Of a DNA stretch of 64,000 bases, positions 9,531 through 48,216 are shown piece after piece; positions within the stretch are counted from its first letter, which is position 1, and each line of letters begins with the position of its first letter. The stretch spans positions 31,000,001 to 31,064,000 of the forward strand of contig OZ231126.1 in the NCBI GenBank assembly GCA_965153355.1, written 5' to 3'. The notes under the pieces are model-generated. The model made no database searches and was not told where the DNA came from. It worked only from the letters and a program-made list of their open reading frames with translations. A program made the translations under genes and the position numbers. This DNA is from Flaccisagitta enflata (lineage: Eukaryota).

Positions 9531-9903
9531 TAACTAAGGGTTATGAATGATGCAAGGTGTGTCCTAGAATTGTCTTAAAATAATACTATCCCTGCCTATC
9601 CACATGTGACTAAGATAGCCATGTAAGTGGCTTTGTTTTTTAATTGTTTGCATATTGCAGAAATTCCTTGTGGATGACAAATTTCTTCTCGCCTTCTGAA
9701 ATGAAGGTATCTGATTTTGAAGAAACATATGTAAGAGCTTTATATATATGTGTGTATGGTAACTTAGTTCATAGTTACTTTATCTCAGATAAATACTTCT
9801 TTGGTGATAAACTAAGAAATAAGAGATGAAGTTCATGAGGGATTAAATATTCAAAACAAAACTTGGAGGTGGGTGGGGAGGAGGTGAAAGAGGACAAGCT
9901 TTG

Positions 9904-10847: not shown

Positions 10848-10849
10848 CT

Positions 10850-10894
10850 TGGTGGCAACGGTGGGATTCGAACCCACGCCTCTGAAGAGACTGG
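10850..10894 (-). pseudogene. 3' half of tRNA-Leu including encoded CCA (retro-copied fragment)
   Basis: Reverse complement CCAGTCTCTTCAGAGGCGTGGGTTCGAATCCCACCGTTGCCA-CCA gives the variable arm, T-arm (GTTCGAATC) and acceptor strand of eukaryotic tRNA-Leu; the 5' half is absent. Confidence 0.8.
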
Positions 10895-20500: not shown

Positions 20501-20854
20501 TATGTATAGTGGAGTTTGATTTTTCCTTCGCACACTGATCCACATCAATTCTAGTTCTCTCTGTGAATCGTGTGGCGTTACATGACTCATCACATCATTC
20601 CTTACTAAAATGCCAACCCCGCCTTTTCCGTTTATGCGACTTCTTCCACAGAATGAGTAGCCTTGAATTTGAATTTTTGTCATGTCATTTAGCATTGTTT
20701 CAGTAAATAAAGCAATCTGTGGCGAGTTTTCTGTTAGAATGTCTATGAGGCATGGTATTTTACTTTTAATACCTTGTGCATTTGAATAGAAGATATTCCA
20801 TTGTTCAGACTTTTTTGTTCTTTGCCTTCTCTTTTTGTATTTTTGTTTTCTGTT
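17501..20854 (-). CDS. LINE ORF2: APE endonuclease + reverse transcriptase + C-terminal CCHC
   Basis: APE motifs (YSNAQG, FTET, MDANA, SAIDF, SDHN), RT motifs (RGITV, DVQKAYD, KQGG, WVDD, YLG), CATC..ENHRINHC; the frame is open for 53 codons upstream of the first ATG (20695), up to the ORF1 stop. Confidence 0.92.
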   Translation of the reverse strand, partial: NRKQKYKKRRQRTKKSEQWNIFYSNAQGIKSKIPCLIDILTENSPQIALFTETMLNDMTKIQIQGYSFCGRSRINGKGGVGILVRNDVMSHVTPHDSQRELELMWISVRRKNQTPLYIGVYYGKQETGVTKEEIETEFGELTQEILEIKQYGDVIICMDANAKIGILDEPISRNGQCLLNMTEEASLTIMNLSEICSGKVTRVNRKKPTEKSAIDFVLACSESESLIEGVQIDEEGSYVMKNDKAESDHNSILISLNLENIDHQKNVIKTVWKTTASEEQLDAFYLALRRFNAESSQIMADHTIPIDVRYNQWYNEIERIAGSTIGKRSIKKTKPEKFSEVVTEMRMGKRRLKKLILSEKDINIKNDLKQQYFAKQRETRNQIEQERAERIREKFSLMIQDKSCAHFWNNVRNGNRDPPSSWISIKDHNGKRLIDPDGIKERVANYYTELFTKQKIPHHPYHDQVEQAIKMYETDFSYDHLDYNECPTLAEIKMAIKNKKNGKSTTDLPNEIIKLGEEEMAKLIHHVVKAFWEGEIIPSLWNEGLISSVWKGKGDKEKMEYQRGITVSSTISMIPEEIIHNRMRNIIKLSPAQGGGKKGSATRDHLFLLRAAMSTAIKNKRPLYITFYDVQKAYDHADPHDMLYIAWNAGLKGKLWRLTKLLNTNLTARINTRYGKTDKIEREIGGKQGGKIMTFLFAKLMDTLAEDLGRTADLGISINNINLSALEWVDDVISFAESHNQQLRTLEFIDEFATKHKLKWGPEKCKVMEVGKNNNNETKWNLGEETITSTNEYTYLGDIITPDGKNDKNIENRKIRMQRTTRRVLASSQIEVMKRIETKTLLRLHEAYTIPSILINCESWTLSKKDRNSLDKMEIWAFKKLLGLPITTPTAAVIYESRAPYTSIRVINRQLKYLHTILVREDEDLGKKTLLSQVSEKSGWGKYIVTTLHECGIELNLDEIRGKKKVEWRAIVDKATWQLNRKKILDSCKGKEKLKTKTLEVAKSLENNCTENNENVLFDLPRHCVKTIIMARYGMLDCANNYKGKYGTKLCATCKTIDDENHRINHCIRWKDVNLYGDKYEIDFNAVYTHDKDTLRQISSLLQCIWNLENNKNETRQ

Positions 20855-22564
20855 TCAGGTGCGTGTGTCAATTTTTTGAAGTATGGCCTGGGTGGTTTTT
20901 GTTAGCTCTGATATCGCAGTCATGATTACCTCAGACTGGCCTGGATTTGGATTTTCGTTGATTAGCTTGGCGGGCATACGGGGTTGATATGGCTCCCGAT
21001 TGTGGCCTTTAGAATAAAGACTTCTTCGTATGGCTTTCATGTGTTCCTTAAAACCATGGTCGGTATAGTGTATACCATTTAGCATGTGTGGCCTGAGCTT
21101 TTTCGTTCTCCGATCAAAGAGTTCTTTGTTGTCAATGAAAGAGTGGTTTGAAGTTTTGGCATATTCGTCTATCTTTTTATTCAGCTCAATTTGCCTTTCT
21201 GTAACTGGTGGAACTGCTGCAGCATGGATGTGTGCATTGGGAAAAGATTTTTTGTACTCTTCACACATTTCTTTGTGTTTTTTAAGAGTTTCATTCACCG
21301 TCTCTTTCTGATTTTTTGAGTCATTGATGCCTGGGAGAAGTATAACGTCAGTGACGTCATCAGGATTTTTCACCTTGGGAATGTTTTTTGCTTGGTTGAG
21401 AGTATAGCGTCTGCGTTTTAGGACTTTTTTGCCCGGATGTATTCTTTCTGGATCGATGTTGTTTCCATTTGAATCATGAATGATCAGGATTTCAGCCTCT
21501 CTGAGCTCATTTCCATCAATCACAACGGGATTTTCGGCGCTGTCTCCTTTATGCAAGCCAGTATCGTTTTTTTGTTCTGGGTTTTTGATTTGGTCATTGG
21601 GATTGATTGTTTTCTCCAAGTTGCCTATTTTTTCTGCCATGTCGACTAGAATCTCACCACAATGGTTTTGCCATATTTCATTGGGACCTTGTTCCCCTTC
21701 GCTTCTTTTGTTTACCTTTTCAGTAAGATCAGAGACTGCAGCTTTAAGCTCCTTGACATCCGAAGCCATTTCGTTTACGTTACATGCCATTTCCGCGAGA
21801 TTTTCATATCGCTTTAGGATGATCGAGCAATTCTTGCTGAGCGTTTCATTGACCTCCGTTAGACCGGCATTCTGTTTCTTCAGTTCGGTGATTTCGGCAT
21901 CTTTTGCCGAGGTGACTTGTATAACGAGATCAGAGCAGATTGTCGTTAGTAGTTTTTCCAATTCACTTTTAGGCTGCGTTGTGTCATGAGCCCCCTGGCT
22001 TTGAGAATCAAACATGTCAGTTTGTGATTTTTCGCCACTTTCAATTGTTTGACTGTCTCCTTTCCTTTCGTGAGAGCGGGGCAGAACAACAGTTTGATTG
22101 GCATTCTTTCTCAGTAAGCTCCTGACCTTCTGGCTGAGGCTATTATCATGTTCGGCTGTGCTGATATCCTGCCCAGTTTGGAACGTATCATCCTCGGTGA
22201 TGGTGCTGCTCGTTTCATCATCATCATCATTTTCCGATCCATGTTCACTCTCTGTGACGTCGATGTCGGCGAGATCACTGTCTGTAGCTGATATTCGATG
22301 GCTTGAGTTGAGCGGTGGTTGCACGTTGATGTCACTCATTAGCGCGATGCATTCATCTTCGTTTGCATGGAAGTATTCGGCGATTTGTTTAATTTGAGCA
22401 GGATCGACTTTATTCTTGTTTGCATATTCGCAGATTTCGTTTCTGAGATCCTCAACTGTGCCATCCATTAGTATGTTGACCTTATGACAAATATATCGCA
22501 AACAGTTAATTTTTTTGTTTGGATGCGACGTTAAAAAGGATTTCAGTGCAGCGCCGATGGCCAT
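20855..22564 (-). CDS. LINE ORF1: coiled coil + SGNH/GDSL esterase-like domain
   Basis: 569 aa; heptad-like central region; SGNH blocks IIHDSN, LLPGIND, NGIHYT. Confidence 0.85.
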   Translation of the reverse strand: MAIGAALKSFLTSHPNKKINCLRYICHKVNILMDGTVEDLRNEICEYANKNKVDPAQIKQIAEYFHANEDECIALMSDINVQPPLNSSHRISATDSDLADIDVTESEHGSENDDDDETSSTITEDDTFQTGQDISTAEHDNSLSQKVRSLLRKNANQTVVLPRSHERKGDSQTIESGEKSQTDMFDSQSQGAHDTTQPKSELEKLLTTICSDLVIQVTSAKDAEITELKKQNAGLTEVNETLSKNCSIILKRYENLAEMACNVNEMASDVKELKAAVSDLTEKVNKRSEGEQGPNEIWQNHCGEILVDMAEKIGNLEKTINPNDQIKNPEQKNDTGLHKGDSAENPVVIDGNELREAEILIIHDSNGNNIDPERIHPGKKVLKRRRYTLNQAKNIPKVKNPDDVTDVILLPGINDSKNQKETVNETLKKHKEMCEEYKKSFPNAHIHAAAVPPVTERQIELNKKIDEYAKTSNHSFIDNKELFDRRTKKLRPHMLNGIHYTDHGFKEHMKAIRRSLYSKGHNREPYQPRMPAKLINENPNPGQSEVIMTAISELTKTTQAILQKIDTRT

Positions 22565-23031
22565 TTTTGCCTGATTAGATTGGCCACTGATTTACGAACG
22601 AGGAGCAGGAATAATCCGACTGTTTTTATGTGATTCGGGCGCAGGAATAATCCGTCACGATCTATGTAGGAGTTTTCGGTGATGAGCACGTGGTCCAATG
22701 ATAAAAATGTAGCGATAGAGTAATCCAATGTCAAAAATAGAAATGTGGCGATAGTGTAATCCAATGTCAATAAATGTGATTAAGAATATGTACAGGAAGA
22801 TGAGATTATGTACATATATAGATTGTTTGTTCAGCCGTTTTCTTTTTCTATTTGTAGGGAAATGTTCTTCGTTATTTCTTGTTTCTTTTTTCCATAGAAT
22901 AGGACGAGATATATGGATTTCTATGGATAGGACGAGATTTCTTTTATTTTCTTGTTGTTTGGTATTTTTTCGAGAAAAATTCGGATCGAGAGAGGAGATG
23001 TGATCGTCATGGGGTTAGGAGAGAGAGAGAG

Positions 23032-31705: not shown

Positions 31706-31709
<4 letters not shown>

Positions 31710-32024
31710 CTGGCCCTGAGCCCCGCTCAACCCCGTTCTGCTTGCGCCTGAGCCCCCCTTTTTGATTCGGGCCTCTCCTCTCTTCTTCTTCTTCCGCATT
31801 TTACCGGTTCAAGCGCTATAAAAGCGACGATGATTATGATTCTAGGCATTCTCTCTTCCTTCTTTTGGAGATCGATCGATTCTCATTGGCTTCGTTACCG
31901 CTTTCACGCTAATAAAGACATTCTCGGGCGATATCGTTCTTCTTTCTTCTTCTTTTAGTGCAGGTTTGCTCAGGCTTAGCTCATTTCAGTTACGATTAGC
32001 TCATCCTCGAACAATCCTCACCGG
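31706..32024 (+). repeat. 5' LTR (GCGCC...CACCGG)
   Basis: Appears identical to 47898-48216; contains a TATA box (CTATAAAAG, ~31817) and AATAAA (~31911) in U3-R-U5 order. Confidence 0.88.
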
Positions 32025-32034
32025 TGGCGCCCAA
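32025..32034 (+). promoter_or_regulatory. Primer-binding site, tRNA-Lys(CUU)-like
   Basis: TGGCGCCCAA directly abuts the LTR end and is complementary to the 3' end (UUGGGCGCCA) of tRNA-Lys. Confidence 0.75.
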
Positions 32035-32401
32035 TGGTGCTCAACCATTCCAGATTCTTTTTTTCCCTCCCAATAGCAGGATCGCGGAATTAAAGACGGA
32101 CACGACCCCAATCGATTTTTTTTCAGCGCCGGGAGACACGATTACGGGATACGAATTTCGTGGTGGACATGGCGAATGGAAGTGGCGAACGGACGTGGCG
32201 AATGGAAGTAGCGAACGAATATGGTGAACAAACGTGGTGAATGTAGCGAACGAACGCGGTGGACGTGGTGAACGAATTTCGTGATGGACCACACGGGATA
32301 ATGCGTAGAGGAAGAAGATACAAATACTAGTGGACGTAAGACCCACCCGAGTCCCACCCGCCAATCATTTCTATCTTCTTTTCCTTTTCTCTTTCTTTCT
32401 C

Positions 32402-32489
<88 letters not shown>

Positions 32490-32542
32490 TTTTTCTTTCT
32501 TATTTTCTTACTTTCTTACTTTCTTACTTTCTTACTTTCTTA

Positions 32543-32589
<47 letters not shown>

Positions 32590-32666
32590 TTTTCATTTCT
32601 TTGTTTCTCTTTGTTTCTCTTTGTTTCTTTGTTTCTTTCTTCTTTTTCTTTCTTTCTTTCTTTCTT

Positions 32667-32800
<134 letters not shown>

Positions 32801-33223
32801 TCTCTCTCATTTCCTTTTCAAAGAGGACAAACTTTTAAATCGCGTCAATGCAACTCTCTAAGCCGCAGTTATCTACGAAAACAAAAAATTATTTATAACA
32901 AAACAAAACAAAACGAATCAGAACAAAATAAAACAAAAACAAAAAAAAACAAAAACAAAACGAAACGAAACGATTCATCAGTAAGTCGCGTCATTTTCAT
33001 CACATTTCTTTTTTTAACACCTCAAATACCCTTAGTTGCGCGTTTAACTTGGTTTTCGAATCCAATCAAAACGAATTTTTTTTCATAATCGCGATGGTGT
33101 GAGCGAAAGCATGATACGCAAATTCATGGAAATTTGAGAACCTGAATCCTACCTGTCCCGTCCATAAGCACTTTCTTTCATTATTTCTTTTCTTTCTTAT
33201 CTTTCTTTCTTATCTTTCTTTCT

Positions 33224-33299
<76 letters not shown>

Positions 33300-33333
33300 T
33301 TCCGTTCTTTCTTTCTTTCTTTCTATTTTTCTT

Positions 33334-33440
<107 letters not shown>

Positions 33441-33792
33441 ATCTCTCTCTCTTTCTTTCTAATTTTTTCCTTTTAGCAGGAACAGATTTTAGTCGCGTGG
33501 ACGCAACTGGCCATCGATCGATCGGTCCGTCTGTTCAACATCAGTAACAACACGGTGGGAACGCATTAACGTGGTGATGGTGACGGTGACATGATAAGGC
33601 GTTGACCCAAAATCATAGGTTGCGAAGGCACGAAAAATGGCATCAACAACGCAGTGAGAACGCATCAACGTAGTGGCGGTGCGTTGACACAATACGGTGA
33701 CGGTTGACGGTTTACGCAAATTATGGGACGCAAACGCATTAACGTGGAGATGGTGACGGTGACATGAGACGGCGTTTTTATCTGTGTCAGTC

Positions 33793-33960
<168 letters not shown>

Positions 33961-34025
33961 TTTTCTTCCTACATTCCTTCCTTCCTTCCATTCCTCCGTC
34001 CTTTCTGTTTTTATCTGTGTCAGTC

Positions 34026-34110
<85 letters not shown>

Positions 34111-34247
34111 TTCTTTCTTTCTTTCTTTCTTTCTCCTTTTTCCTTTTCTTCCTTCATTCCTTCCTTCCTTCCATTCTTCCGTCCTTCCTTCCTTCCTCCC
34201 TTCCTTCCTTCCTCCCTTCCTTTCTTTCTTTCTTTCTTATCATCATC

Positions 34248-34278
<31 letters not shown>

Positions 34279-34579
34279 TCATCGTCATCATCACCATCAC
34301 CATCATCATCATCATCATCATCATCATTATCATCACCACCACCCACGACGACCCACATTCACAATTTCGTGGAATGTAACCTGGGAAAACGACCCCGCTC
34401 TCGCCACCCACAGTCGGCTTTTGAAGAAGATCCAGTCTAAACAACGACAATTAAGAAGCACGGCCCAACCCAAAGCTGTCGATGGACGTATAACACTTTA
34501 CAAAATCGAGGTGAGTCTGCCAACCGGCAAATTCGTCTCTCTGTCTGTCTCTGTCTATCTGTCTCTGTCTATCTGTCTG

Positions 34580-34686
<107 letters not shown>

Positions 34687-35786
34687 CAGTTTGTCCGCAC
34701 TCTTTCTGATTGTCTGTTGATCTGATTGTCTGTTCATCCCCCCTCACCTTCCCCCCCACCTCCTGCCCCTCTTTACTGGACGTGGCCTAAAAACGCGACC
34801 CTGTGGAGAGACCACCAATCCAGACACTGCTGTCATCACCAGTCCTAAGAAAAGGCCTCAAAACATCTCACCTTTGCCTAGTTTCGTTTATCACCGACGT
34901 CTGGATTTCCGATTTAGCGGCAAGTCGGCCGCGCCTTTCCTTCTTCTTCTTCTTCTTCGTCTTCTCCTTTTCTTTTCCTCTTTCTTCTTCCATCTCTTCT
35001 TCTTCTTTTCCTTTTTCTTCTTCCATCTCTTCTTCCATCTCTTCTTCCATCTCTTCTTCCATCTCTTCTTCCATCTCTTCTTCCATCTCTTCTTCCATCT
35101 CTTCTTCCATCTCTTCTTCTTCTTCTTCTTCTTCTTCTTCTTCTTCTTCTTCTTCTTCTTCTTCTTCTTCTTCTTCTTCTTCTTCTTCTTCTTCTTCTTC
35201 TTCTTCTTCTTCTTCTTCTTCATCTTCTTCGTCTTCTCCTTCTTCTTTTCCTTTTTCTTCTTCCATCTCTTCTTCTTCTTTTCCTTTTTCTTCTTCCATC
35301 TCTTCTTCCATCTCTTCTTCCATCTCTTCTTCTTCTTCTTCTTCTTCTTCTTCTTCTTCTTCTTCTTCTTCTTCTTCTTCTTCTTCTTCTTCTTCTTCTT
35401 CTTCTTCTTCTTCTTCTTCTTCTTTATCGTATACATATATTTTTTTCTTCTTCCTAAAGTCAGGACGCCTTCAATCGGCGCATGGAATTCTTGCAAAATC
35501 ACAACCCCACCGAGTCCGGTGATAAAGACGATTGGATGGTCGGTCGGGCGGTCAATCGTTCATTAAAACGTCTTCTCAACAATTTCATTAGCAAAGACTC
35601 TCTCTCTGACGCAAGTTGTCATCGGTCGCATGCACGTCCAACACAAACTCGTTTGACCATCGGTTTGTACATCATTTTCTTTCGCTTCATCACCTTCACC
35701 AATCGTTAAAAGTAAGACAATCACAACAACATAAACAACAACATAAAAAACATAAACATCAGAAACAACATAACAACAACAACAGC

Positions 35787-35895
<109 letters not shown>

Positions 35896-36194
35896 TAAAA
35901 AAAACAACATCTCTTTTACTTTTCTACTTTGTTTGTTTGTTTATATGATTGTTTTTTGTATTTGTTTGTTTGTTTGTTTCGTTCTTTCTTCTGTTAAACA
36001 CGTTTATTCTTTCAGTAGTACAACGCCACAGATACGGATGGAATCGTAAGTCGGACGATCGTTTGGTCCTTTTCCGATAGCATCGTTGTCGGTGTTTCTC
36101 TTCCTTCCTGGAACTGTCAACGTCATCCCCAATCAAGTCGGTCGGTCGGACGGTCGGTCGTTTAATCTTCTTTCGTTGATAAGTCGCCATCATC

Positions 36195-36286
<92 letters not shown>

Positions 36287-36330
36287 TAAACATTCTACAC
36301 CTCTCCCTTTCTGATGAATTAATCCTACCA

Positions 36331-36615
36331 ATGGCGGGTAGACTGAAGGCAAGTATCAAATTGAGCAAGCACACCTTTAAAGATATAATACTGGGAGAAA
36401 TCATAGAAATAAGAGAACAGAGACCTAATCTTTCGGAAATTCAAGCTTGGTGGGAGCTAGTGGAGAGACTAGAGAAGACTAACTGTTTTCGAAACTTTCA
36501 AGAGATTCTTGACGTATGGGGCTTTGCTTTCGAGAGCGCACCAAATATTATCTTTCCACAGCTTTATGGTCTTCATTTGAATGACCTGAGAAGAAGAGCA
36601 GGCCTGTTGGACTGA
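36331..36615 (+). CDS. Small 94-aa ORF inside the LTR element, function unknown
   Basis: CCAATGG start, non-repetitive composition, fills the unique DNA between a (TC)n tract and the 16-bp array. Confidence 0.4.
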   Translation: MAGRLKASIKLSKHTFKDIILGEIIEIREQRPNLSEIQAWWELVERLEKTNCFRNFQEILDVWGFAFESAPNIIFPQLYGLHLNDLRRRAGLLD

Positions 36616-36619
36616 AAGA

Positions 36620-37832
36620 AACTCGACAATTGGCAAACGACAATTGGCGAATGACAATTCACGAACGACAATTGGCGAACAACGATTGGCCAACAACGAT
36701 TGGCGAAGGACGATTGGCAATTGGCGAACATCGATTGGTACACACAACGATTTGCAAACTTGACGATTGGCAAACTCAACAATTGACAAACTTGACAATT
36801 GACAAACTTAACGATTGGCAAACTCGACATTTGGCGAAGTCGACGATTGGCAAACTCGACGACAGGCAAACTCGAAGATTGGCGAACTCGACAATTGGCG
36901 TACGCGACAGTTGGCGATCTCGACAATTGGCGAACTTGAGGTTTGGCAAACTTGATGATTGGCAAACTTGACAATTGGCGAACTCAACAGCGAACTTGAA
37001 GATTGGCAAACTCGAAGATTAGCAAACTCAACAATTGGCGAACTTGACAATTGGCGAACTTGATGATTGGCGAAATCAAATACTTATGAACTCAACGATT
37101 GGCAAACTTCACGATTGGCAAACTCGAAGATTGGGAAACTAGACAATTAGCGTACACGGCGATTGGCGTTCTTTACAATTTGCGAATTCGACGATTGGCG
37201 AACTCAACAATTGGCAAACTCGACAGTTGGGGAACTTGAAGATTGGCAAATGCGATGATTGGTGAACTCGACAATTGGCAAACTCAACATTTGGCGAACT
37301 CATCGATTGGCGAACTCGATGATTGACGAACTCGACATTTGGCCAACTCGATGATTGGCGAACTTGACAATTAGAAAACTCAACAATTAGTTAATTTGAC
37401 AATTGGCAAACCAACAATTGTTAAACTTGACAATTTGCAAATTTACGATTTGTGAACTTGACAATTTGCAAACTTGACAATTACCAAACTCAAAGATAGG
37501 CACACTTGGCGATTGGGGAAATTCACGGTTGGGGAACTCGACAGTTGGCAAACTTGGCGATTGACAAACTTGGCAATTGGCGAACTTGATGATTGGCAAA
37601 CTCAACAATTGGCGAACTCAATGATTGGCCAACTCGATGATTGGCGAACTTAATGATTGGAAAACTTGGCAATTGGCAAACTCAACGATTGGTAGACTCA
37701 ACAATTGGTAAACTCGACGATTGGCAAACTCGATGATTGGCAAACTCAATGATCGGCAAACTCAATGATTGGCAAACTCGATGATTGGCAAACTTGATGA
37801 TTAGCAAACTCGACGATTGGCGAACTTGACAA
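36620..37832. repeat. Degenerate 16-bp tandem array (ATTGGCAAACTCGACG) directly upstream of gag
   Basis: About 1.2 kb of units, most containing ATTGG (a reverse CCAAT). Confidence 0.9.
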
Positions 37833-37873
37833 TAGGATTTAATACCTTGTACTTCTCCCACCTCTACATCAAC

Positions 37874-39610
37874 ATGGATCAGGAACGCTCTTTGGATAAA
37901 CGCTGTTCAGCGCTTGCCATGGAAAACATCAAGATCAAGGAGGATGATGTGGAGGCCAACATGACAATACCTGAACTGATAGAATCAATGACAAACAAAC
38001 ACCAAAATCTTCACAAGCAGCTCTTGAAGGAACGCCTTGAGCATGAAACCGTTGTCAAAAATCTGAGGAAAGAGATGCATCATATGCAGGTAACTATCAA
38101 CGATCTTGAGAATCATAATTTTGATTTGCAGGAGTGTCTGGAGGAAGCAGAAGCCAGAATAGACTTCCTCGAAGTGCAAAACAAATCGGCATTAACAACA
38201 GCATGTGGAATCAAAAAACGGTGCGATATGCTTCGCTCATTTGAAAAAGAAGACGAGCATGCAAAGATGGATTACGATAACAGGATTCGCCAACTCAGCA
38301 CTTCATTCGAGGAAATCAAGCAAAAACTTGAGACATACTTGACAGATTTTGGTCGAAGCAAGGAAGATTGTAACGTGAACCGAGGCAAGGCTAAGGAGGA
38401 GAAGACAGCCCCAACAAAACCTACCGCAGAATCGAAGCATCGGTGGGACCACGAAGAGGTGCGACAGTTTCAAAATCATGGCTTCGTTCAGAACTTGACA
38501 ATCGCACAAGAATCTCTCCCTCAAGACAAATCGCTGATGAATGCCTCAAGGAGCGTCAACGTACTTCCCATCACGGACGGTGACGGAGATAAGACCCAAA
38601 ATCTCCCTACAGAACGTAATTCAACAATTTCCTCGAGGGTTTACGCTCAGAGACTGGAATCCGTCAGCTTCCCTAAGAACATCTACGACAGCCATGACGA
38701 ATATTGTGACGAAACTCAAATCATAGTTGATCAAGCCTTGGCAATGGGCCTGAAAGATTTAGATGTGGCGATCATTCTCAGAGACCACATCCAAAGGTCT
38801 CCCCTCCGATCCAGCCTCTTAGCAGAACTGAAAGACCACCTTCCTTCTACGAAACAGGTAATGGTGGCTTTGCGAAATTGTGAAAAGACGGACCCCAACA
38901 TGACAAGCGAACAGAAATTCAAACTGTTGAAACCACGTCACCAAGAGTCCTGGTATAATTATGCGAAGCGGGTGGAGAAATACTTCAATGATCACCGGGT
39001 AGCTGATGCGCAGCACAAAAATCGTATGATCAAGGAGCACCTGATTAAAGCGACTCCTAATTTGCCCGATCTCGTCGCCAACATCATCAGCTCACCATCA
39101 CTTGCCCTTGCTGATCTCGCACAGTACATCCAGGATGAAATGACGAAAATAAAACAACCAAGACATCTGATCGATTCAACAATTACCCCTCTCCTTCAAG
39201 ATGGTCAAATACTTGATCAACAATCTGTTCCATCACCTCAAAATGATTCATTTGTGGTCGATAGACAAGACCAAGGCATGGCGTCACACAGACCTCCGCA
39301 GGATGAACCTATCGGTCAACAACGAAGTGGATCGACTTTTCACCCTCGAAGAAGAAACCGTAAGCGCCCCATTTGTGAAAATTGCCAGCGCCTTGGGCAC
39401 AAATGGCAAGATTGCCAATGGGAAGCATTCTGTTCCCTCTGTAACAAAGAAGGACATCAAAACAGCTCCCACACCACCAACCAATGCAACTACAAGCCTC
39501 CTGAACATATTCGTCAAGCGTACAAGGATTCTTTTGTTTCGGGTGGAATGAACAAAGAGGAGCAAGATGTGCTCAATGATCCCTCTCAAGGAAACACGAA
39601 TAATCCATGA
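37874..39610 (+). CDS. Gag-like protein (coiled coil, capsid MHR-like motif, two zinc knuckles)
   Basis: AACATGG start, 578 aa; HQESWYNYAKRV resembles the major homology region; CENCQRLGHKWQDC (CCHC) and CSLCNKEGHQNSSH. Confidence 0.8.
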   Translation: MDQERSLDKRCSALAMENIKIKEDDVEANMTIPELIESMTNKHQNLHKQLLKERLEHETVVKNLRKEMHHMQVTINDLENHNFDLQECLEEAEARIDFLEVQNKSALTTACGIKKRCDMLRSFEKEDEHAKMDYDNRIRQLSTSFEEIKQKLETYLTDFGRSKEDCNVNRGKAKEEKTAPTKPTAESKHRWDHEEVRQFQNHGFVQNLTIAQESLPQDKSLMNASRSVNVLPITDGDGDKTQNLPTERNSTISSRVYAQRLESVSFPKNIYDSHDEYCDETQIIVDQALAMGLKDLDVAIILRDHIQRSPLRSSLLAELKDHLPSTKQVMVALRNCEKTDPNMTSEQKFKLLKPRHQESWYNYAKRVEKYFNDHRVADAQHKNRMIKEHLIKATPNLPDLVANIISSPSLALADLAQYIQDEMTKIKQPRHLIDSTITPLLQDGQILDQQSVPSPQNDSFVVDRQDQGMASHRPPQDEPIGQQRSGSTFHPRRRNRKRPICENCQRLGHKWQDCQWEAFCSLCNKEGHQNSSHTTNQCNYKPPEHIRQAYKDSFVSGGMNKEEQDVLNDPSQGNTNNP

Positions 39611-40936
39611 CGGGGCCGGGTGGATTTTGAAGAGTCACACCGTAGACCAGACGTAATCCTTATTAACCAAGCAGGTAATCTTACTAAGCTTCATAGAGTA
39701 GGAAACACTAACACATTTGTCAAGGCAGAATCTGCGAGAAATCGATTTCGAAATAAAACTACGCGGCGATCGAAATTTAAAGATGAAATGACCGACAGAG
39801 GCTCCAGACGCAAACTCGAGGGATCGCAAAACACCACTCGTCCCGAAAGAAAAACGGCCAAACCATGGTTCAGACGCAAATATCCACAACATCCAAATGA
39901 AAACAAAAGATACCGTGGCGAACCTTTTGATCTACGCGAGGTAAAGGAAAACAAAACTGTAGGCGGTTCAAAACCAAATTCAACCAAAAAGTACATCTCC
40001 AGGGACACGGAGAAGACCACTAATCAAAAGGTATGGCAGTTAAATACTTCAAACAGATATAGACTCCTATCCAATCTTGATGTTGACGAAAAGGCATCGG
40101 AACCACTTTGCTCGTCACTACTGGATGATAACATTATTGACAAAAGCCTTAATTGTCTCAGAAATCAGAAAGATCTCTCCAGCGTTACGCGATCATCACC
40201 TGATGATGAAAACTTTGCGCAAAGACTGGAATGCCTGCGCAGTGGCACTACAAAAAGAAAAGGTAAGTCAAAAATGAACTTGTCTTCTCTTGATCATTCA
40301 GCCATTCAAACAGAGGGATCTTGCCAAAAATGTAAATCATCTGAAAAATGGAAAAACGCAAAGGAGAACAAATCTGCCTCAAGCCCATCGAATGAAAGCG
40401 AATCAAGACGGAATTTCGCATCTAGACGGAGGGGCGGACGCTCGGGCTTCTATAAAGCTAATACAAGTATGAGTAGCTCGCGAGTTCGGGTTATCGAATC
40501 TAGACGGAGGGGCGAAAACCCTAACGATGGCTCAAATGAGAACACTTCTTCAACTAATAGTGCAACCTCGTCACCTGCATCTTATCGGAGGAAAGAAGTT
40601 CTAACGAATGTGAATTCTTCCTCGGATCCTGCAAACGAACATACGGGTGACAAAGCAACTGTCAATGGTAATGATCTTACATCAGCACTCGATGCACACA
40701 AAAAAAGTAATGCAACTGGAAATGATATAGAAACCAATCATGCCAGTACTAACACTTTTCAAGATAATACACCAGGTAAGGTACATCTTGCCCTCATGCA
40801 GGATGATTTGCGATACTTCATGTCACTCATTCTCCTGAATCAAATCTGGGTGTCATCCAGACGTTGTAGGCCTCCTAATGATGTTGTTTCTAAGGGAACT
40901 CAAAATGGTCCCAAACCTCAGAAACCCTCGTCTTAG
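39611..40936 (+). CDS. Basic/Ser-rich ORF in frame after the gag TGA; no protease, RT, RNase H or integrase motifs recognised
   Basis: Frame stays open for 441 codons after TGA CGG GGC CGG; overlapped by another ORF at 40878-41537. Confidence 0.45.
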   Translation, partial: RGRVDFEESHRRPDVILINQAGNLTKLHRVGNTNTFVKAESARNRFRNKTTRRSKFKDEMTDRGSRRKLEGSQNTTRPERKTAKPWFRRKYPQHPNENKRYRGEPFDLREVKENKTVGGSKPNSTKKYISRDTEKTTNQKVWQLNTSNRYRLLSNLDVDEKASEPLCSSLLDDNIIDKSLNCLRNQKDLSSVTRSSPDDENFAQRLECLRSGTTKRKGKSKMNLSSLDHSAIQTEGSCQKCKSSEKWKNAKENKSASSPSNESESRRNFASRRRGGRSGFYKANTSMSSSRVRVIESRRRGENPNDGSNENTSSTNSATSSPASYRRKEVLTNVNSSSDPANEHTGDKATVNGNDLTSALDAHKKSNATGNDIETNHASTNTFQDNTPGKVHLALMQDDLRYFMSLILLNQIWVSSRRCRPPNDVVSKGTQNGPKPQKPSS

Positions 40937-43399
40937 CTTCCAAGCATCTCCAGGGTCGACATGGTATCTCGGAACAACATCTTATTTCAGAACAACATCG
41001 TATCACGAATTGACGTCATCTCGAAACGTCATTGTTTCTCAGAATGACATAATATCTCGAAACGATCCTGCATATTGGAATCTTCAATCAAGACGGAGGG
41101 GCGAAAATCTGAATTTTGACTACAACTTCGCGAATACATCATCTTCTGGAACCCTTACGCCTCTGAATTCCGCATCTACCCGGAGGATCGAAAAAGAAGG
41201 TAGAGGGTCAAGAATGAACGCAACTAGGGCAACGGACCACACCATTGCGTGGATGGGTGGCCAATCGATCGACAACATGGATGATCACCCTTCCAAATCC
41301 ACCAAACCCAAAGACTCCCTGAACTCAGGTGGAATCATGTCTGAACTCTTTGTGCTTCCGTTGATATGTTCCTTTCAGATTTGGGGATTTCCAATTGGTG
41401 TTATTCTACTCTGCATTGGAACCATCGTGGAGATACCGATTTGCCTCGGGGATTATAAATATCCCATCACGCGAATGATGAAGCGTCTGGCCAACGTTAT
41501 CCGGGCGCAAAAAGCAACCAATTGCTTGTTGGTCTAACTATATGATGGAATTAGTGGCTGGTAGAATAAATTTTCTCAGTTTACGCCAATCTTTCCCACT
41601 TGAAACCCTCCACTCCTTCATTCTCCTCTTCCTGATTTGAACATACACTGCAAATTTGCATTTCTAATTGCACCACAAATTACGTTAAAAATCAAGCATG
41701 CTATAATTTGCCGCACAAATCGCGTTACAAATCGCTTGACAAATTGCGTCAAATTGCATTATGAATAGCGTTATAAAACACACATCGCGTTACAAATTGC
41801 TTGAAGAATTGCATTTAAAAATTGTATTACAAATCGGGTTACAAACTGTGCAAATTTGCATTTCAAATTGCACCACAAATTACGTTAAAAATCAAGCATG
41901 TTATAATTTGCCGCACAAATTGCGTTACAAATCGCTTGACAAATTGCGTCAAATTGCATTACAAATAGCGTTATAAATCACACATCGCGTTACAAATCGC
42001 ATGATCAAATTACAATTTACATCACCTGTATCACTCATCAAGGCTTGATCTCTCACTTAAGTTTCCAACATTCTCTTTCACCCGCAGTTAACTGGGACAT
42101 TTTTGTTGAAGTCCTATCTTTTGGCCATCAAATTTTCAATCCACAAACATTTGCAAATCCTTATCACTGATTCGGCAAAGCCGTCCCTCCATCTTCAACC
42201 TAATCTGTTCCTGATTCAACACAACATCGTCTTCCAGCTGCTTCAATCCTGCAGCATTTATCTGCCACCTAAGCTGTTTTTCTTGTCAGGTCATCTTCTT
42301 TCTTTGTCATCAAACAGTATTAAAAGAAAAAAAAAAGAAAAGAAAAGAAACATATTTAAAATCTCTTTAAATGGTTCTGCACTCAGTCTTGACAAATTTA
42401 TGACTCTTCAAATCCATGCGGTGTCCTTGTTCTTAGTAGTTTTGCATGCATAATTCACTAATTCTAGCATTGCTCTTAGTGTCTTAGAAAAGATTATTGT
42501 CACAAAATCTTTTCATATCCAGCCCATTGCCATGGAAGAAATCTTGCTTTAACTAACAATTTCTCTGTCTTCAATCCTGCCTGAACCCAAATTGAATAAC
42601 ATTCAGTGCTCATATCCATTTTGCTTGCTTTTAACTTACACTTCAACTCAGTAAGTCTAACATTGGATGTCTGAGGCTGTAAACTGTAAGCGCCAATCTA
42701 TCAGACTGTCAGTTGGAATCTTTTTGGACATTCTTGCTTTGCTATCAGCTGATTAGCTGTCCATTAGTCCTTTGGTCCTTTAGTCTTTCGTCACTTCAGT
42801 CCAGTCTATCTGCAAATCCACCTGTTGATTCAGAAGACTTTGGGTCTTCACAGTCCAAGTTCTGGCTGAAACTGCAATATGCTTACAAAACTGCCAACTC
42901 TGACCTTTTATGTACAATCATCACTTCAGATGTCCAGGCAATTTTCGCCTGTCTGATTGTCACCCTATGTTTTACTCCAAAGTTCTGAACATCATTTTTT
43001 AAAAAAATGCCCATACTATATTTCTACAAGTGTCACTCAGAAAATCAATATTTTATTTTTTTAGTCTCTTACCTAAATTCTATTGACTCCCACCTGTTTA
43101 AGTCTACTTACCCATACCTCCCCCCCCCTCCCTACAGTTGAAGTACCCTGTACCCAATTGAATGTACCTGGACATCACTTTTTTAAATGCCCATACTAAA
43201 TCACTACAAATGTGAATCCCCCTACTATGTCAATCAAAAAATCAATATTTCATATTTTTTAGTCTCTCACCTAAATTTCATTGACTCCCACCCGTTTTAG
43301 TCATGCTTACCCTTACCTCCCCCCCCCCTCCCAACATTAGCTGAGCATCCCTCCCTGTACCCCATTACATGTATAATCTAGATACCATTTGGATTTTGC

Positions 43400-46300
43400 T
43401 TATTCGGACCTTCATCTTCTCCTCGCTGGCTTAATGGTGGGCTGTCGAAACTGCAGAGTGGGTTTCATCTGTGGCAGTACTCATCGTCTTCGCATCGATC
43501 GATGACTTGCATGGGTTGATGGCTCAAGTGGATCGGTGATTCGCACGGTTTTACGTTGAATTGGATTTCGGTCTCGCATGGATCGTAGTGAATGCAGATC
43601 GATGGCAGCATCAGGCTCAGAGGCCTTCTCGTCCAGCCTCCTTCCCTTGCTCAAAGGACCACTTGAATCGTCATCCCAAATGGATTGTCAGATGGTCATC
43701 ATCACTGGATTGTCGTCAGGCATGAATCGTGACGCAAATGGATTGATGGCGCATCTTCTCAACGACCCTCTCCTCTAACCTTGGTTAAACTCCTCCCGTC
43801 CGTCCCTCACTTAGTGGCACACTCAGATTAATGGTTCGAACGGCTCACTAGCCCTCTCTCCCACCCTCAACACGTATCGATTGTTGGCACAAAAAAATGC
43901 GTTGTTGCCACGCCCCTTCCTTCATCATTCCCTCGCTCAATGGCACGCATGGATTGGTAACCTGAACGCTCGCTCTATTCCATGATCAAATTGTCGTCAC
44001 GCATGAGACGGCGCATATGAATTAGGGCATCTTCATGTTCAACATCCTTCTACCCTACCTCCCTCGCTCCCTCGCTCGTTGGTTTGAATGAACCCTCACT
44101 ATGTATCGATCGTCAGCACAAAAATGCTTCGTCGCAATTCCCCTTCCTTCATCATTCCTTCGCTCAATGGCACGCGTGGATTGATGGTTTGATTGCCCGC
44201 TCCATTCCATTGTCAAAATTACGTATCGATCGTTGGCACAAAAAAATGCATCATTGCAACGCCCCTTCCTTCATCATTCCCTCGCTCAATGGCATGCATG
44301 GATTGGTAATCTGAACGCTTGCTCCATTCCATGATCAAAATTGTCGTCACACACGAGACGGCGCATATGAATTAGGGCATCTTCACGTTCAACAGCCTTC
44401 TACCCTACCTCCCTCGCTCCCCCGCTCGTTGGATCGAATGAACCCTCACCACGTATCAATCGTCAGCACAAAAATGTGTCGTCGCAATTCCCCTTCCTTC
44501 ATCATTCCTTCGCTCAATGGCACGCGTGGATTGATGGTTTGATCGCCCGCTCCATTCCATAGTCAAAATAGTCGTCGCGCAAAAATGATGCACGCGGACC
44601 AGGGCAACTTCACAGCCTTCTACCCTACCTCCCTTCCTCCCTTGCTCGATGGATCGAATGAACCTTCTTCACGTATTGAACGTCGGCACAAATGAAGTGT
44701 CGTCGCAATCCCCCTTCCTTTATCATTACTTCGCTCATTGGCACATTTGGATTGGTGGTTCGAACGCTCGCTTGATTCTTTGGTCAAAATTGTCGCACAC
44801 GAAACGGCACACGCAGATCGAAGGCAACTTCATAGTCAGCCGCTTTCTCTTACAACCTTCTACCCTACCTCCCTCGCTGCCTCGCTCGGTGGATCGAATA
44901 AACCCTCTTCACGCGTTGAACGTCGGCACAAATAGTATCGTCGCAACCTCCCCTTCCTTCATCATTCCCTCGCTCAATGGCACGTGTGGATTGGTGGTTT
45001 GAAAGCTCGCTCGACTCCATGGTCAATTTGCCGTCACGCATGAGACGGCGAACGCAGCTCGAAGGCGATTTCATGCTCAGCCGCTTTCTCATACAGCCAT
45101 CTACCCTACCTCCATTGCTCGATGGATTGAATGAACCCTCTTCACGTATTGAACGTCGGCACAAATGAAGTGTCATCCCACTCCCCCTTCCTCCATCCTT
45201 CTGTCACTCAGTGGCACGCTTGGTTTGATGGTTTGAACAGTTCGTTATCACAGACTGCCATCCCTCTCTCCTTCCCTCGCTCGTTGGATTGAATGGGCCG
45301 TCGTCACAAATGAAATTTCGGCACAAATGGACTGTCATTTATTATCCCTTCCTTCGCCTCTCTGGATTGATGGCTCGCATGGATCGATGGCTCGCGCGGG
45401 TCGATGGCTCGCGTGGGTCGATGGCTCGCGCGGATCGATGGCTCGCGCGGATCGATGGCTCGCGCGGATCGATGGCTCGCGCGGATCGATAGCTCACGCG
45501 GAACAACTCCTTTACTCTCATCGACTTCTGCCTCCATCTTTATTCATCATATCCACTCTCTAAACTGAAACTGGATCACATCGACCTCTCCCTCCATCTC
45601 TATCAATCATATCCATCCTCTAAATCGGGACTAGATCACATGGACTTCTCCTTCTATCTCTTTTCCTTATATCCATCCTCTAAATAGAGGCTGGTTCACA
45701 TCAACTTCTCCCTCCAACTCCATAATATCCATCTTCCAAATCGAGGCTGGGTCACATTGTCTTTTTCCTCCTCCATCCTCCATCTTATCCATCCTCAATT
45801 TTAGGGTGCCCTCTGCACATACTCTGGTGTCTCGTCTTGGCTATAAGGATAACTAACTCTCCCTCCCTCCCACGCTTAGTGGATCAAATGGACCGTTGTC
45901 GCAAGTGGACTATTGGCACCAATGGAGTGTCGCCGCACGCTCCCCTACCCCGTCCTTCCCTCACTCAGGACTCTCGCATGACACCCTCCGATTGATGGTT
46001 CGAGCAGTTTGTAATCACAGAAGGACTGTGATCCCTCCCTCGATGGATCAAATGGACCGTCGCCATGAATGAACTGTCAGCACAAATAGAGTGTTGCCGC
46101 TCTCTTCCTTCCCTCACTCTGTGGCAAGCTCGGATTGATGGTTTGAATGGATCGTTATCAGGATCCTCCCACGGACGCAATCTCCAATCTCCAACGACAC
46201 ACGTGGATTGATGGCTTCTGTGGATTGATGGCTTGCATGGATCGACAGCTCGCATGAACCAACAGCTCCTGAAGATTGACAGCTCGCATGGATCGATGTC

Positions 46301-46820
46301 TCGCATGAATCAATGCCTCGCATGGATTGATGGCTCGCGTGGATCGAAGGCTCGCATGGATTGACGGATTGCCTGGCTCAATGGCTCTCGTGGCTCGACG
46401 GATTGCGTGGCTCGATGGCTCTTGTGGATCGATAGCTTGCGTTGATTGTTGGCTCGCGCGGATTGATGGCTCGCGCGGATCGATGGCTTGCGCGGATTGA
46501 TGGCTCGCGCGGATCGATGGTTCGCGCGGATCGATGGCTCGCGTGGGTCGATGGCTTGCGCGGATCGATGGCTCACGTGGGTCGATGGCTTGTGAGGATC
46601 GATGGTTCGCGTGGGTCGATGGCTCTCATCAAACAACTTCTTTACTCCAATCAACTTCTCCCTCTATCTCTATTCATCATATCCATTTTCTAAATCTAGA
46701 TTATATCACATCGACTTCTCCCTCCAGCTCCATCATATCCATCCTCTAAGTTGAGGCTGGGTCACATCACTTCTTCCTCCGGCATCATCCATCTTATCCA
46801 CCCTCAATTCAAAGCTACCC
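43400..46820. repeat. Complex tandem repeats in the 3' part of the LTR element (~230-bp units and 17-bp GGATCGATGGCTCGCGC arrays)
   Basis: CCCCTTCCTTCATCATTCCCTCGCTCAATGGCAC recurs from 43910 to 45220; 17-mers at 45370-45500 and 46200-46625. Confidence 0.85.
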
Positions 46821-47884
46821 TCTGCAAATTTTCTTTTACATTGACGCCAATGAAACCTTTGTTCAGTGCTGCCATTTACGAAACCCACTCAGCAATGATT
46901 TTCAATTTCAACATTTCTACCAGTGCACGGACTCCTCTTCTTCAAGAAGCATAAATGTCCCCCTGTGTTCACCCCACATGAGGCTCCTCTTTCTGTTCTT
47001 ACTTTTCTTATTATCATTCCCCATGCTCACCCCCCATCTCCGATAATCATTACCTTTTATTTTCCCTCTAACCTTGATGATATACTTTTTTAACAGGTGT
47101 TATTTTCATGACTATAAAAAAAACTTTCAAAGTATACATGTACCCTTTTGAATTTTCTTGCTATACCGGATTTGTACCTATCTGCCTTAATAAGTGATAC
47201 AGACACAAACCTGAATTTTTCTCCTTTCTGATTTCAATCTATCATTTTTTTTATCATTCAGTCTTTTGGCGCTTTGATATTCCTTTTCTTTTTTTTTTTG
47301 ATATCATTTATACACCGCCTTATGTGGATGGTGACAAGTTACATTAATTTCAGTTTCAAAGGTGTTCTCTTTCCAATAGTGATTTTCCGCATCATACAAT
47401 GTACACGTACTTTTATTGGATCATTGTGAGCCATTCTAATTTTTTTCTGTTGTGTAAATCCTTCATTTTCCAACATCAATTCGTTTCTGTCCTACCATAC
47501 ACTTTTCCGTTTTTTCTCCCATTCCTTTTCTCCCATCCCCTCTTGTTTTCATACATAGCCTTGTGTTGACATTACCTTCAGCAGAGTCTCAAAAGTCTCA
47601 AAGTCTCATAAGTTTCATTTCATAATTAATAAATAGGGCTCCAAAGTGCTTTTCTTGATACAGCATACGACATACAAGTTTCATATTTTTGAGACCCATC
47701 CCGATTTTTCCTCCATTTGGTACTACCACATACTCTTCTATATTTCTACCAGCCTCATATTTACGTTAGTTACTAGAGAGTCCGTCTCAAAGGCGGGTAC
47801 TCCGCGGCAGACGGGTTTTTGCGTGAGCTCTGGCCTTTTTTGGCAAAACTCCCCTTTGTCTCTACGCTTCCAAATTGGCGTTTT

Positions 47885-47896
47885 GAGACGGAGGGG
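47885..47896 (+). promoter_or_regulatory. Putative polypurine tract GAGACGGAGGGG
   Basis: 11 of 12 bases are purines; ends 1 nt before the 3' LTR. Confidence 0.65.
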
Positions 47897-47897
47897 C

Positions 47898-48214
47898 GCG
47901 CCTGGCCCTGAGCCCCGCTCAACCCCGTTCTGCTTGCGCCTGAGCCCCCCTTTTTGATTCGGGCCTCTCCTCTCTTCTTCTTCTTCCGCATTTTACCGGT
48001 TCAAGCGCTATAAAAGCGACGATGATTATGATTCTAGGCATTCTCTCTTCCTTCTTTTGGAGATCGATCGATTCTCATTGGCTTCGTTACCGCTTTCACG
48101 CTAATAAAGACATTCTCGGGCGATATCGTTCTTCTTTCTTCTTCTTTTAGTGCAGGTTTGCTCAGGCTTAGCTCATTTCAGTTACGATTAGCTCATCCTC
48201 GAACAATCCTCACC

Positions 48215-48216
<2 letters not shown>
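47898..48216 (+). repeat. 3' LTR
   Basis: 319 bp, appears identical to 31706-32024; followed directly by (GA)n. Confidence 0.88.

What the first reader, a model, noticed from the sequence alone, without database searches (positions are those of the whole stretch)
40424..47898. The PPT 13-mer AGACGGAGGGGCG recurs three times inside the element's ORFs
Seen: the exact 13-mer at the PPT/3'-LTR junction (47886-47898) also occurs at 40424, 40502 and 41091, close to the middle of the element, where it encodes RRRG. Established: lentiviruses, foamy viruses and Ty1 use central PPT copies for extra plus-strand priming. Inference: multiple central PPTs could help copy a 16-kb template. Alternatively they are relics of old internal duplications, since copies 2 and 3 share downstream similarity.
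Basis: partly seen in the sequence, partly recalled or inferred. Interest (0 to 1): 0.7.

Follow-up and report, generated by a model that had tools for sequence, protein, structure and literature searches.

The report
PPT sequence repeated inside a retrotransposon
A 16.5-kb jumping gene carries three letter-perfect extra copies of its 13-letter second-strand start signal near its middle, inside a protein-coding repeat, which fits the extra "central" start sites known from HIV, yeast Ty1 and plant EVADE but is not yet proven.

Summary
AGACGGAGGGGCG occurs exactly four times in 64 kb, where 0.02 is expected. One copy abuts the 3' LTR. The other three lie at 52.8-56.8% of a 16,511-bp LTR element.

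The element has identical 319-bp LTRs, a tRNA-type primer site, a capsid/zinc-knuckle gag and an unknown 639-aa ORF2. It has no protease, RT or integrase, so it depends on a partner element.

In intact relatives all three internal copies encode RRRG in the same ORF2 frame. RRRG is kept in 7 of 7 motif instances in three sister proteins.

Outside the 13-mer the flanks are no more alike than shuffled sequence. Codon usage cannot explain the shared codons (P about 8e-6). The copies are therefore letter-perfect islands, not plain duplication debris.

Central PPTs are the best reading at about 0.45, but priming was not shown. The decisive test at synonymous sites could not be finished: sister contigs show 331 variable places in 2,151 bases, and only 40 were listed. 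Multiple central PPTs are already known, so this would be a new member of a known kind.

The parts
31706..32024 (+). 5' LTR (319 bp) with TATAAAA at 31817 and AATAAA at 31911. The outer flank is (GA)n.
32025..32040 (+). Primer-binding-site-like sequence (starts TGGCGCCC) directly after the 5' LTR.
   Evidence: Its likeness to the 3' end of a tRNA-Lys is recalled, not tested; no tRNA gene lies in the window.
37874..39610 (+). gag: coiled-coil N-terminal part, helical capsid-like middle, then a CX2CX4HX4C knuckle and a CCHH-type knuckle. Its stop codon is kept in the relatives.
39620..41537 (+). ORF2 of unknown family (639 aa in the intact relative P0012; S/N/R/K-rich with a hydrophobic C-terminal stretch). 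In this copy it is broken by an in-frame stop at 40934-40936 and a frameshift between about 41010 and 41040. It starts with GTG where the relatives have a Met.
40424..40436 (+). Internal 13-mer copy 1 (peptide context ASRRRGG).
40502..40514 (+). Internal 13-mer copy 2 (peptide context ESRRRGEN).
41091..41103 (+). Internal 13-mer copy 3 (peptide context QSRRRGEN).
40406..40412 (+). Decayed copy of the motif (AGACGGA, peptide ESRRN). Two more decayed copies (CGGAGG after GCATCT-NNN) lie at 40586-40591 and 41181-41186.
47851..47896 (+). Hairpin in which an upstream pyrimidine tract (47851-47862) pairs with the 3' PPT (47885-47896). The internal copies have no such fold.
   Evidence: -35.4 kcal/mol, z = -4.19, 0 of 200 shuffles fold as well; internal copies z = 0.58, -0.31, 2.05
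47886..47898 (+). 3' polypurine tract (11 purines of 13) abutting the 3' LTR.
47898..48216 (+). 3' LTR, 100% identical to the 5' LTR. The outer flank is (GA)n.

Best explanation
The 13-mer is the 3' polypurine tract of a recently inserted 16.5-kb non-autonomous LTR retrotransposon. The element has gag and an unknown ORF2 but no pol.

The three internal copies sit in a short repeated coding motif of ORF2 (...S-R-R-R-G-E/G...). That motif probably spread by small internal duplications.

The copies have stayed letter-perfect, and identical to the 3' PPT, because they work at the nucleic-acid level. After minus-strand synthesis, the partner element's RNase H would spare them as it spares the 3' PPT. 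Plus-strand DNA would then also start about 6.8-7.5 kb upstream of the 3' PPT, near the middle of an unusually long template. In that case they are central PPTs.

Shown: the identity, position, strand and reading frame of the copies; that they are islands; and that RRRG is retained in relatives. Inferred: RNase H resistance, priming, and selection for it.
For:: four exact copies against 0.02 expected.

one copy lies exactly at the PPT position.

the internal copies lie at 52.8-56.8% of 16,511 bp. The element interior has only 5 other purine runs of 12 or more on the + strand.

Arg codons are AGA 28, CGG 13 and AGG 13 of 92, and Gly GGC is 14 of 49. Three RRRG would share all four codons with P about 7.7e-6. 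The 9 other RRRG found in the six frames of the window use other codons.

with the 13-mer excluded, none of 12 flank comparisons beats the shuffles (best results 34/500 and 41/500). Identity therefore stops within about 4 bases of the motif.

RRRG, and the G that starts the next codon, are kept in 7 of 7 motif instances in P0004, P0012 and P0013. Overall identity is 80-91%. The residue just before the motif changed in 3 of the 7.

PMC7197481 (passages read): multiple cPPTs are documented in EVADE, and cPPTs in Ty1 and HIV.

PMC3185511 (passages read): PPTs need not be all purine.
Against: There is no direct evidence of priming.

The tract is short (13 nt) and has two pyrimidines, one at the second-last position.

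The internal copies lack the T-run that precedes the 3' copy, and they lack the strong hairpin that embeds it.

Three sites within 670 bp are redundant for priming.

Decayed copies of the same motif lie nearby at 40406, 40586 and 41181, so the motif does duplicate and decay.

Retention of RRRG in relatives is only marginal statistically. P0004 and P0012 are 97% alike and are treated here as one lineage, with P0013 as a second. Retention is about 0.05 by my estimate from 81% and 87-91% background identity.

The RT/RNase H that would read the signal is unknown, because the element has no pol.

Synonymous-site data from sister DNA could not be read.
Confidence: 0.45

Rival explanations
1. The copies are relics of small internal duplications of a peptide repeat (SRRRG) in ORF2 and have no role in replication. 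The likeness to the PPT is inherited or incidental.
For: The motif family is visibly repeated and decaying: AGACGGA at 40406, and GCATCT-NNN-CGGAGG at 40586 and 41181.

Copies 1/2 and copies 2/3 each share 4 more bases.

The segments after copies 2 and 3 match weakly as protein: 19/37 residues, E = 0.017, and 10/22, E = 0.05.

All copies are in frame in the intact ORF2.
Against: If the duplications were old enough to randomise the flanks, about 7 synonymous sites per copy should have drifted too. None did in three copies (P about 7.7e-6 for shared codons).

A fourth identical copy exactly at the PPT position has a chance of roughly 4^-13 if it is unrelated. Its flanks show no ORF2 likeness (34, 449 and 313 of 500 shuffles score as well).
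Confidence: 0.3
2. The 13-mer is some other nucleic-acid signal, such as a binding site for Gag/NC, for ORF2 protein or for a host factor, or a purine-rich splicing or packaging element. It happens to double as the PPT, or to overlap it.
For: The island pattern and codon identity show constraint on the letters, but not which constraint. The 3' copy lies in a strong hairpin that the others lack, so the four sites are not equivalent in RNA.
Against: No evidence points to any particular factor. The one copy whose role can be read from its position is a PPT. No Rfam or other search was run for such a signal.
Confidence: 0.1
3. The direction of descent is the reverse. A rearrangement put the 3' LTR next to a fourth copy of the ORF2 motif, and that copy was co-opted as the PPT because it is purine-rich. 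The internal copies are simply its kin.
For: The PPT copy reads RRRG in an open 106-codon frame. The region between ORF2 and the PPT consists of satellite-like arrays, which suggests much rearrangement.
Against: There is no detectable likeness upstream of the PPT copy to ORF2. This account explains the origin but not the lasting letter-perfect identity. It also still predicts that the internal copies are PPT-competent.
Confidence: 0.1
4. Chance recurrence or an assembly artefact.
For: None beyond the window's richness in simple repeats.
Against: 0 of 100 shuffles reach 4 matches. In the lay, 27 of the 55 X1 contigs are 99% or more alike to 39500-41650, and one (40491-40736, 0 differences) spans copy 2. 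X1 may, however, be the sample the window was assembled from.
Confidence: 0.01

Closest known systems
Multiple central polypurine tracts of the Arabidopsis Ty1/copia element EVADE (PMC7197481, abstract and passages read)
   Same: More than one internal PPT-like site on the plus strand of an LTR retrotransposon, proposed to start plus-strand DNA.
   Different: The EVADE sites were defined as 15-19-nt all-purine runs and were backed by discontinuities in VLP DNA reads. Here the sites are 13 nt with two C, are exact copies of the 3' PPT, sit in a non-autonomous gag+ORF2 element of a marine organism, and have no cDNA data.
cPPT of HIV-1 and other lentiviruses, and the second PPT of yeast Ty1 (as cited in PMC7197481 and PMC3185511, passages read; sequence details recalled)
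   Same: An internal repeat of the 3' PPT sequence inside coding sequence near the middle of the genome.
   Different: Those sites lie in pol (the integrase region) of autonomous elements of 6-10 kb, mostly as a single copy, and HIV has a termination sequence and a flap. Here three copies lie within 670 bp in an accessory ORF of a 16.5-kb element without pol.
Central purine-rich regions of foamy viruses (recalled; only the listing of PMC4070436 was seen)
   Same: Several purine-rich elements in the central part of a long retroelement genome.
   Different: I recall that not all foamy-virus elements are identical to the 3' PPT. No sequence comparison was made here.
Non-autonomous LTR retrotransposons that keep gag but lack pol (class recalled from the literature; not searched)
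   Same: LTRs, PBS, PPT and a gag-type ORF, with no protease, RT or integrase.
   Different: This element is very large (16.5 kb). It is filled with micro- and minisatellite arrays and has a conserved second ORF of unknown family.

Membership tests
LTR retrotransposon | Two long terminal direct repeats | tested here: met
   319 bp, 100% identical, 31706-32024 and 47898-48216. TATA and AATAAA lie inside.
LTR retrotransposon | tRNA-complementary primer binding site next to the 5' LTR | tested here: inconclusive
   TGGCGCCC... starts at 32025. No tRNA gene lies in the window for comparison. The tRNA-Lys likeness is recalled only.
LTR retrotransposon | Purine-rich tract next to the 3' LTR | tested here: met
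   11 of 13 bases are purines, ending at the LTR boundary.
LTR retrotransposon | Target-site duplication and TG...CA termini | tested here: not met
   Both flanks are (GA)n, so a duplication cannot be read. The repeat starts (G)CGCC and ends CACCGG, and TG and CA lie 4 bases inside.
LTR retrotransposon | gag (capsid plus zinc knuckle) | tested here: met
   Canonical CX2CX4HX4C. Atlas clusters Retrotrans_gag/Ty3_capsid/DUF4939 score 0.93 with 171 features. 19 of the first 20 ranked Foldseek hits, including the top 10, are retroelement capsids (PNMA2, copia, HIV, HERV-K, Arc, MLV), but all have E >= 0.1 and the model has mean pLDDT 48. Pfam has no hit at gathering score.
LTR retrotransposon | pol (protease, RT/RNase H, integrase), the mark of an autonomous element | tested here: not met
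   0 of 89 stop-to-stop frames of 70 aa or more in the element hit such a Pfam family at E <= 0.001. The only RT in the window belongs to a LINE at 17501-20854.
Central polypurine tract (cPPT) | Internal plus-strand sequence identical or nearly identical to the 3' PPT | tested here: met
   13 of 13 bases, three times.
Central polypurine tract (cPPT) | Position near the middle of the element | tested here: met
   0.528, 0.533 and 0.568 of the length.
Central polypurine tract (cPPT) | Uninterrupted purine run (15-19 nt in the EVADE definition) | tested here: not met
   13 nt with C at positions 4 and 12. PMC3185511 notes that single pyrimidines occur in some PPTs.
Central polypurine tract (cPPT) | Nucleotide-level conservation among family copies | tested here: inconclusive
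   RRRG is kept in 7 of 7 instances as protein. The DNA lay listed 40 of 331 variable places, none inside a 13-mer, but 291 are hidden. No indel is listed inside a 13-mer.
Central polypurine tract (cPPT) | Plus-strand start, discontinuity or flap in the cDNA | not testable with these tools
   Needs VLP or extrachromosomal DNA reads.
Internal coding duplication (relic) | Homologous flanks around the repeated core | tested here: not met
   12 flank pairs give 34-474 of 500 shuffles scoring as well. There is only weak protein likeness, E = 0.017 and 0.05 with the motif included.

The most novel reading that the evidence does not exclude
Three exact PPT copies are held by selection on the DNA or RNA letters inside an accessory gene of a giant pol-less LTR element, as a cluster of central plus-strand origins. 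On this reading the repeated RRRG peptide is largely a by-product of a replication signal, and the cluster is what lets a 16.5-kb, repeat-laden template be copied by a borrowed reverse transcriptase.
Probability: 0.3. Interest if true: 0.5.

Novelty: new member of a known kind. Interest (0 to 1): 0.35.

Why it matters
If the sites prime plus-strand DNA, central PPTs would extend to a non-autonomous, very long animal-type LTR element. It would also be a clean case in which a replication signal constrains a coding repeat.

The case would be useful for annotating active elements and for reading VLP-DNA data. It would not overturn anything, because multiple cPPTs are already documented (PMC7197481).

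The element is of some interest in itself. Its identical LTRs show a recent insertion although ORF2 is broken and pol is absent. Gag and ORF2 are conserved in relatives from marine samples.

Tried and rejected
No whole genome is held for the window.

DNA of sister copies was sought in four scans, and none found a relative. JGI metagenome contigs were scanned with ORF2 (198 pattern hits, none confirmed) and with a 7-row gag alignment (589 hits). Viral contigs gave 120 hits and prokaryote genome contigs gave 116.

Protein searches for more ORF2 relatives gave only P0004 and its cluster mate P0012, plus the fragment P0013. The Atlas gave nothing for ORF2.

The RNA raw-read run X10 put 0 reads on 39500-41650, with about 6 in 100 of the run read. 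The tool calls this no test.

Contig ends and soft-clipped ends fall near the motifs: 40424, 40436>40499, 40496 and 41104. I considered them as signs of conserved islands or breakpoints. I set them aside because they are too few and depend on the aligner.

I tested for a remnant of a nested LTR after copy 1 and rejected it (U1 against the LTR, 50 of 500 shuffles score as well).

The gag structure model is poor (mean pLDDT 48). Its capsid matches (E >= 0.1) are a lead only.

Earlier findings of this scan: nothing on this genome or sequence. The five word hits concern other elements.
Full report
OBSERVATION

AGACGGAGGGGCG occurs exactly at 40424, 40502, 41091 and 47886, all on the + strand. No extra site appears at one mismatch. 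Dinucleotide-preserving shuffles give 0.02 matches on average, and 0 of 100 reach four. At up to three mismatches, the only additional matches inside the element are four minus-strand sites at 34534, 34932, 42182 and 43793, plus a minus-strand partner at 47849-47861.

A self-comparison of the window finds one long distant repeat: 31706-32024 = 47898-48216, 319 bp, 100% identical. The fourth copy therefore ends at the first base of the 3' LTR. That shared G could also belong to the (GA)n flank of the 5' LTR.

THE ELEMENT

The unit 31706-48216 is 16,511 bp. The LTR holds TATAAAA (31817) and AATAAA (31911). TGGCGCCC... follows the 5' LTR at 32025 as a primer-binding-site-like sequence. I recall that it resembles the end of a tRNA-Lys, but no tRNA gene is in the window to test this.

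Both outer flanks are (GA)n, so the element sits in a microsatellite and no target duplication can be read. The repeat ends are not TG...CA; TG and CA lie four bases inside.

Most of the interior is micro- and minisatellite arrays. Two genes stand between 37.9 and 41.5 kb.
- gag (37874-39610) has a canonical CX2CX4HX4C knuckle and a second CCHH-type knuckle.
  - It resembles Retrotrans_gag/Ty3_capsid/DUF4939 clusters in the Atlas (0.93, 171 features).
  - Its helical middle part, modelled poorly (mean pLDDT 48), draws only weak Foldseek hits. Of the first 20 ranked hits, 19 are retroelement capsids: PNMA2, copia, HIV, HERV-K, Arc and MLV, with E >= 0.1.
- None of 89 stop-to-stop frames of 70 aa or more in the element hits a protease, RT, RNase H or integrase family. 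The only RT in the window belongs to a LINE on the minus strand at 17501-20854.

The element is therefore a non-autonomous, gag-bearing LTR retrotransposon. Its identical LTRs point to a recent insertion.

ORF2 AND THE MOTIF

Relatives exist as unnamed ENA proteins. For gag they are 95-98%, 70% and 46-50% identical, and all stop where the window's gag stops. For ORF2 they are P0004 (554 aa), P0012 (639 aa, full length) and the fragment P0013.

ORF2 begins three codons after the gag stop, in the same frame, with Met in the relatives. It has no relatives outside this family among 1.84 billion representatives and no Atlas hit.

In the window, ORF2 starts with GTG. It carries an in-frame stop at 40934-40936 and a frameshift between about 41010 and 41040. 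In that stretch one search lists a length difference to one X1 contig. In the intact relative all three 13-mers lie in one frame and encode RRRG, in the contexts ASRRRGG, ESRRRGEN and QSRRRGEN.

Decayed versions of the same short motif lie nearby: AGACGGA at 40406 (ESRRN), and GCATCT-NNN-CGGAGG at 40586 and 41181. The motif has therefore multiplied locally and some copies have decayed.

DUPLICATION DEBRIS OR CONSTRAINED LETTERS?

With the 13-mer left out, I compared upstream and downstream flanks of the four copies and the LTR in 12 pairs against 500 shuffles each. None stands out. The best results are copy 1 against the PPT upstream flank (34/500) and copy 2 against copy 3 downstream (41/500). 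Identity extends only 4 bases beyond the core: ATCT for copies 1/2 and AAAA for copies 2/3. As protein, the segments after copies 2 and 3 match weakly: 19/37 residues, E = 0.017, motif included.

Codon usage in gag+ORF2 is not skewed towards the motif's codons. AGA is 28, CGG 13 and AGG 13 of 92 Arg codons, and GGC is 14 of 49 Gly codons. Three RRRG peptides would share all four codons with P about 7.7e-6. The nine other RRRG in the window's six frames use other codons.

The three internal copies are thus perfect islands in flanks that are randomised or were never related. Selection on the peptide alone does not explain this. That the same 13 letters also form the PPT cannot be chance.

SISTER COPIES

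RRRG, and the G that opens the next codon, are kept in 7 of 7 motif instances: P0004 and P0012 have three each, and P0013 has one. Overall identity is 80-91%. The residue just before the motif changed in 3 of the 7. The motifs are therefore not absent from sister copies.

The statistical weight is small. P0004 and P0012 are 97% alike and are treated here as one lineage, with P0013 as a second. My estimate is P about 0.05.

For DNA, runs X1 and X2 (organism A), X3 (a marine metagenome) and X10 (RNA) were laid on 39500-41650 at 80% likeness.
- Contigs laid numbered 55, 37 and 28 for X1, X2 and X3, spread over all identity classes. The family is therefore multi-copy and diverged.
- 331 variable places exist, but only the 40 best supported were printed. 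None of those 40 lies in a 13-mer, and 291 are hidden.
- The table of indels lists none inside a 13-mer.
- X10 gave no reads, which the tool calls no test.

CONTEXT OF THE 3' COPY

The 3' PPT is preceded by a T-run. It pairs with an upstream pyrimidine tract in a strong hairpin (-35.4 kcal/mol, z = -4.19, 0 of 200 shuffles fold as well). The internal copies have no comparable fold (z = 0.58, -0.31, 2.05). The four sites are thus alike in letters but not in RNA context. This matters little for an RNA/DNA hybrid, but it is a difference.

MECHANISM

My best reading (0.45) is that the motif spread by small duplications and that the perfect copies are kept because the partner's RNase H treats them like the 3' PPT. 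That would give extra plus-strand starts 6.8-7.5 kb upstream, near the centre of a very long template.

Every step after 'identical to the PPT' is inference from what is established for HIV-1, Ty1 and EVADE (PMC7197481, abstract and passages read) and from the note that PPTs may hold single pyrimidines and co-evolve with their RT (PMC3185511, passages read).

Several points count against this reading:
- The tract is short and interrupted.
- The T-run and the hairpin are absent at the internal sites.
- Three sites within 670 bp are redundant.
- Decayed copies lie nearby.
- The RT is unknown.

The rivals are neutral duplication relics (0.3), another nucleic-acid signal (0.1), a PPT co-opted from an ORF2 motif (0.1) and chance (0.01).

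COMPARISON AND NOVELTY

Central and even multiple central PPTs are known, so at best this is a new member of a known kind. It has three unusual traits. The host element is pol-less and 16.5 kb long. The sites are exact PPT copies in an accessory ORF rather than in pol. They also form a peptide repeat.

Membership as a cPPT is met for identity and position. It is not met for an uninterrupted purine run. It is open for conservation and untestable here for priming.

LIMITS

No sister DNA could be read letter by letter. X1 may be the sample the window came from. Statements on foamy viruses, Ty1 sequence details, tRNA-Lys and gag-only element classes are recalled, not tested.

Noticed in passing
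window 47832-47907: The 3' PPT is the 3' arm of a strong hairpin. The stem has 12 bp with two G-U pairs, formed with the pyrimidine tract at 47851-47862 (-35.4 kcal/mol, z = -4.19). On the minus strand the partner is itself a PPT-like purine run (47849-47861, 3 mismatches to the 13-mer). Its function is unknown.
   Followed up: partly
window 39608-39622: The gag stop is conserved in relatives. ORF2 starts three codons later in the same frame, with Met in the relatives and GTG here. This suggests read-through, reinitiation or a separate message.
   Followed up: partly
window 39620-41537: ORF2 is broken in this copy (a stop at 40934-40936 and a frameshift near 41010-41040) although the LTRs are 100% identical. 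The copy was therefore probably already defective when it moved and was mobilised in trans.
   Followed up: partly
window 31706-31712 and 32018-32024: The LTR termini are non-canonical: the repeat starts (G)CGCC and ends CACCGG, with TG and CA four bases inside. The element is inserted in a (GA)n microsatellite, so no target duplication can be read.
   Followed up: no
window 17501-22591 (minus strand): A non-LTR retrotransposon. One ORF has an endonuclease and RT (RVT_1 E = 5.8e-14). An upstream ORF has a weak GDSL-lipase/esterase match (E = 1.4e-4, below the Pfam cut-off).
   Followed up: no
window 32368-37830 and 41713-46625: About two thirds of the element's interior is tandem repeats: (TTTC)n, (CTT)n, (ACA)n, (TC)44, a 16-bp array of 69 units, 221-350-bp satellites and 17-bp arrays. 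On the + strand pyrimidine runs dominate (50 runs of 12 or more, against 5 purine runs).
   Followed up: no
window 9763-10985: A 71-bp tandem array of 14 units, ten of them 100% identical.
   Followed up: no
window 40436-40499 and 40557-40799: Single X1 contigs join these places, skipping 62 and 241 bases. A further X1 contig has unrelated sequence before 40496. Deletion or recombinant variants of ORF2 therefore exist in organism A, and two of the breakpoints lie within 6 bases of a 13-mer.
   Followed up: no
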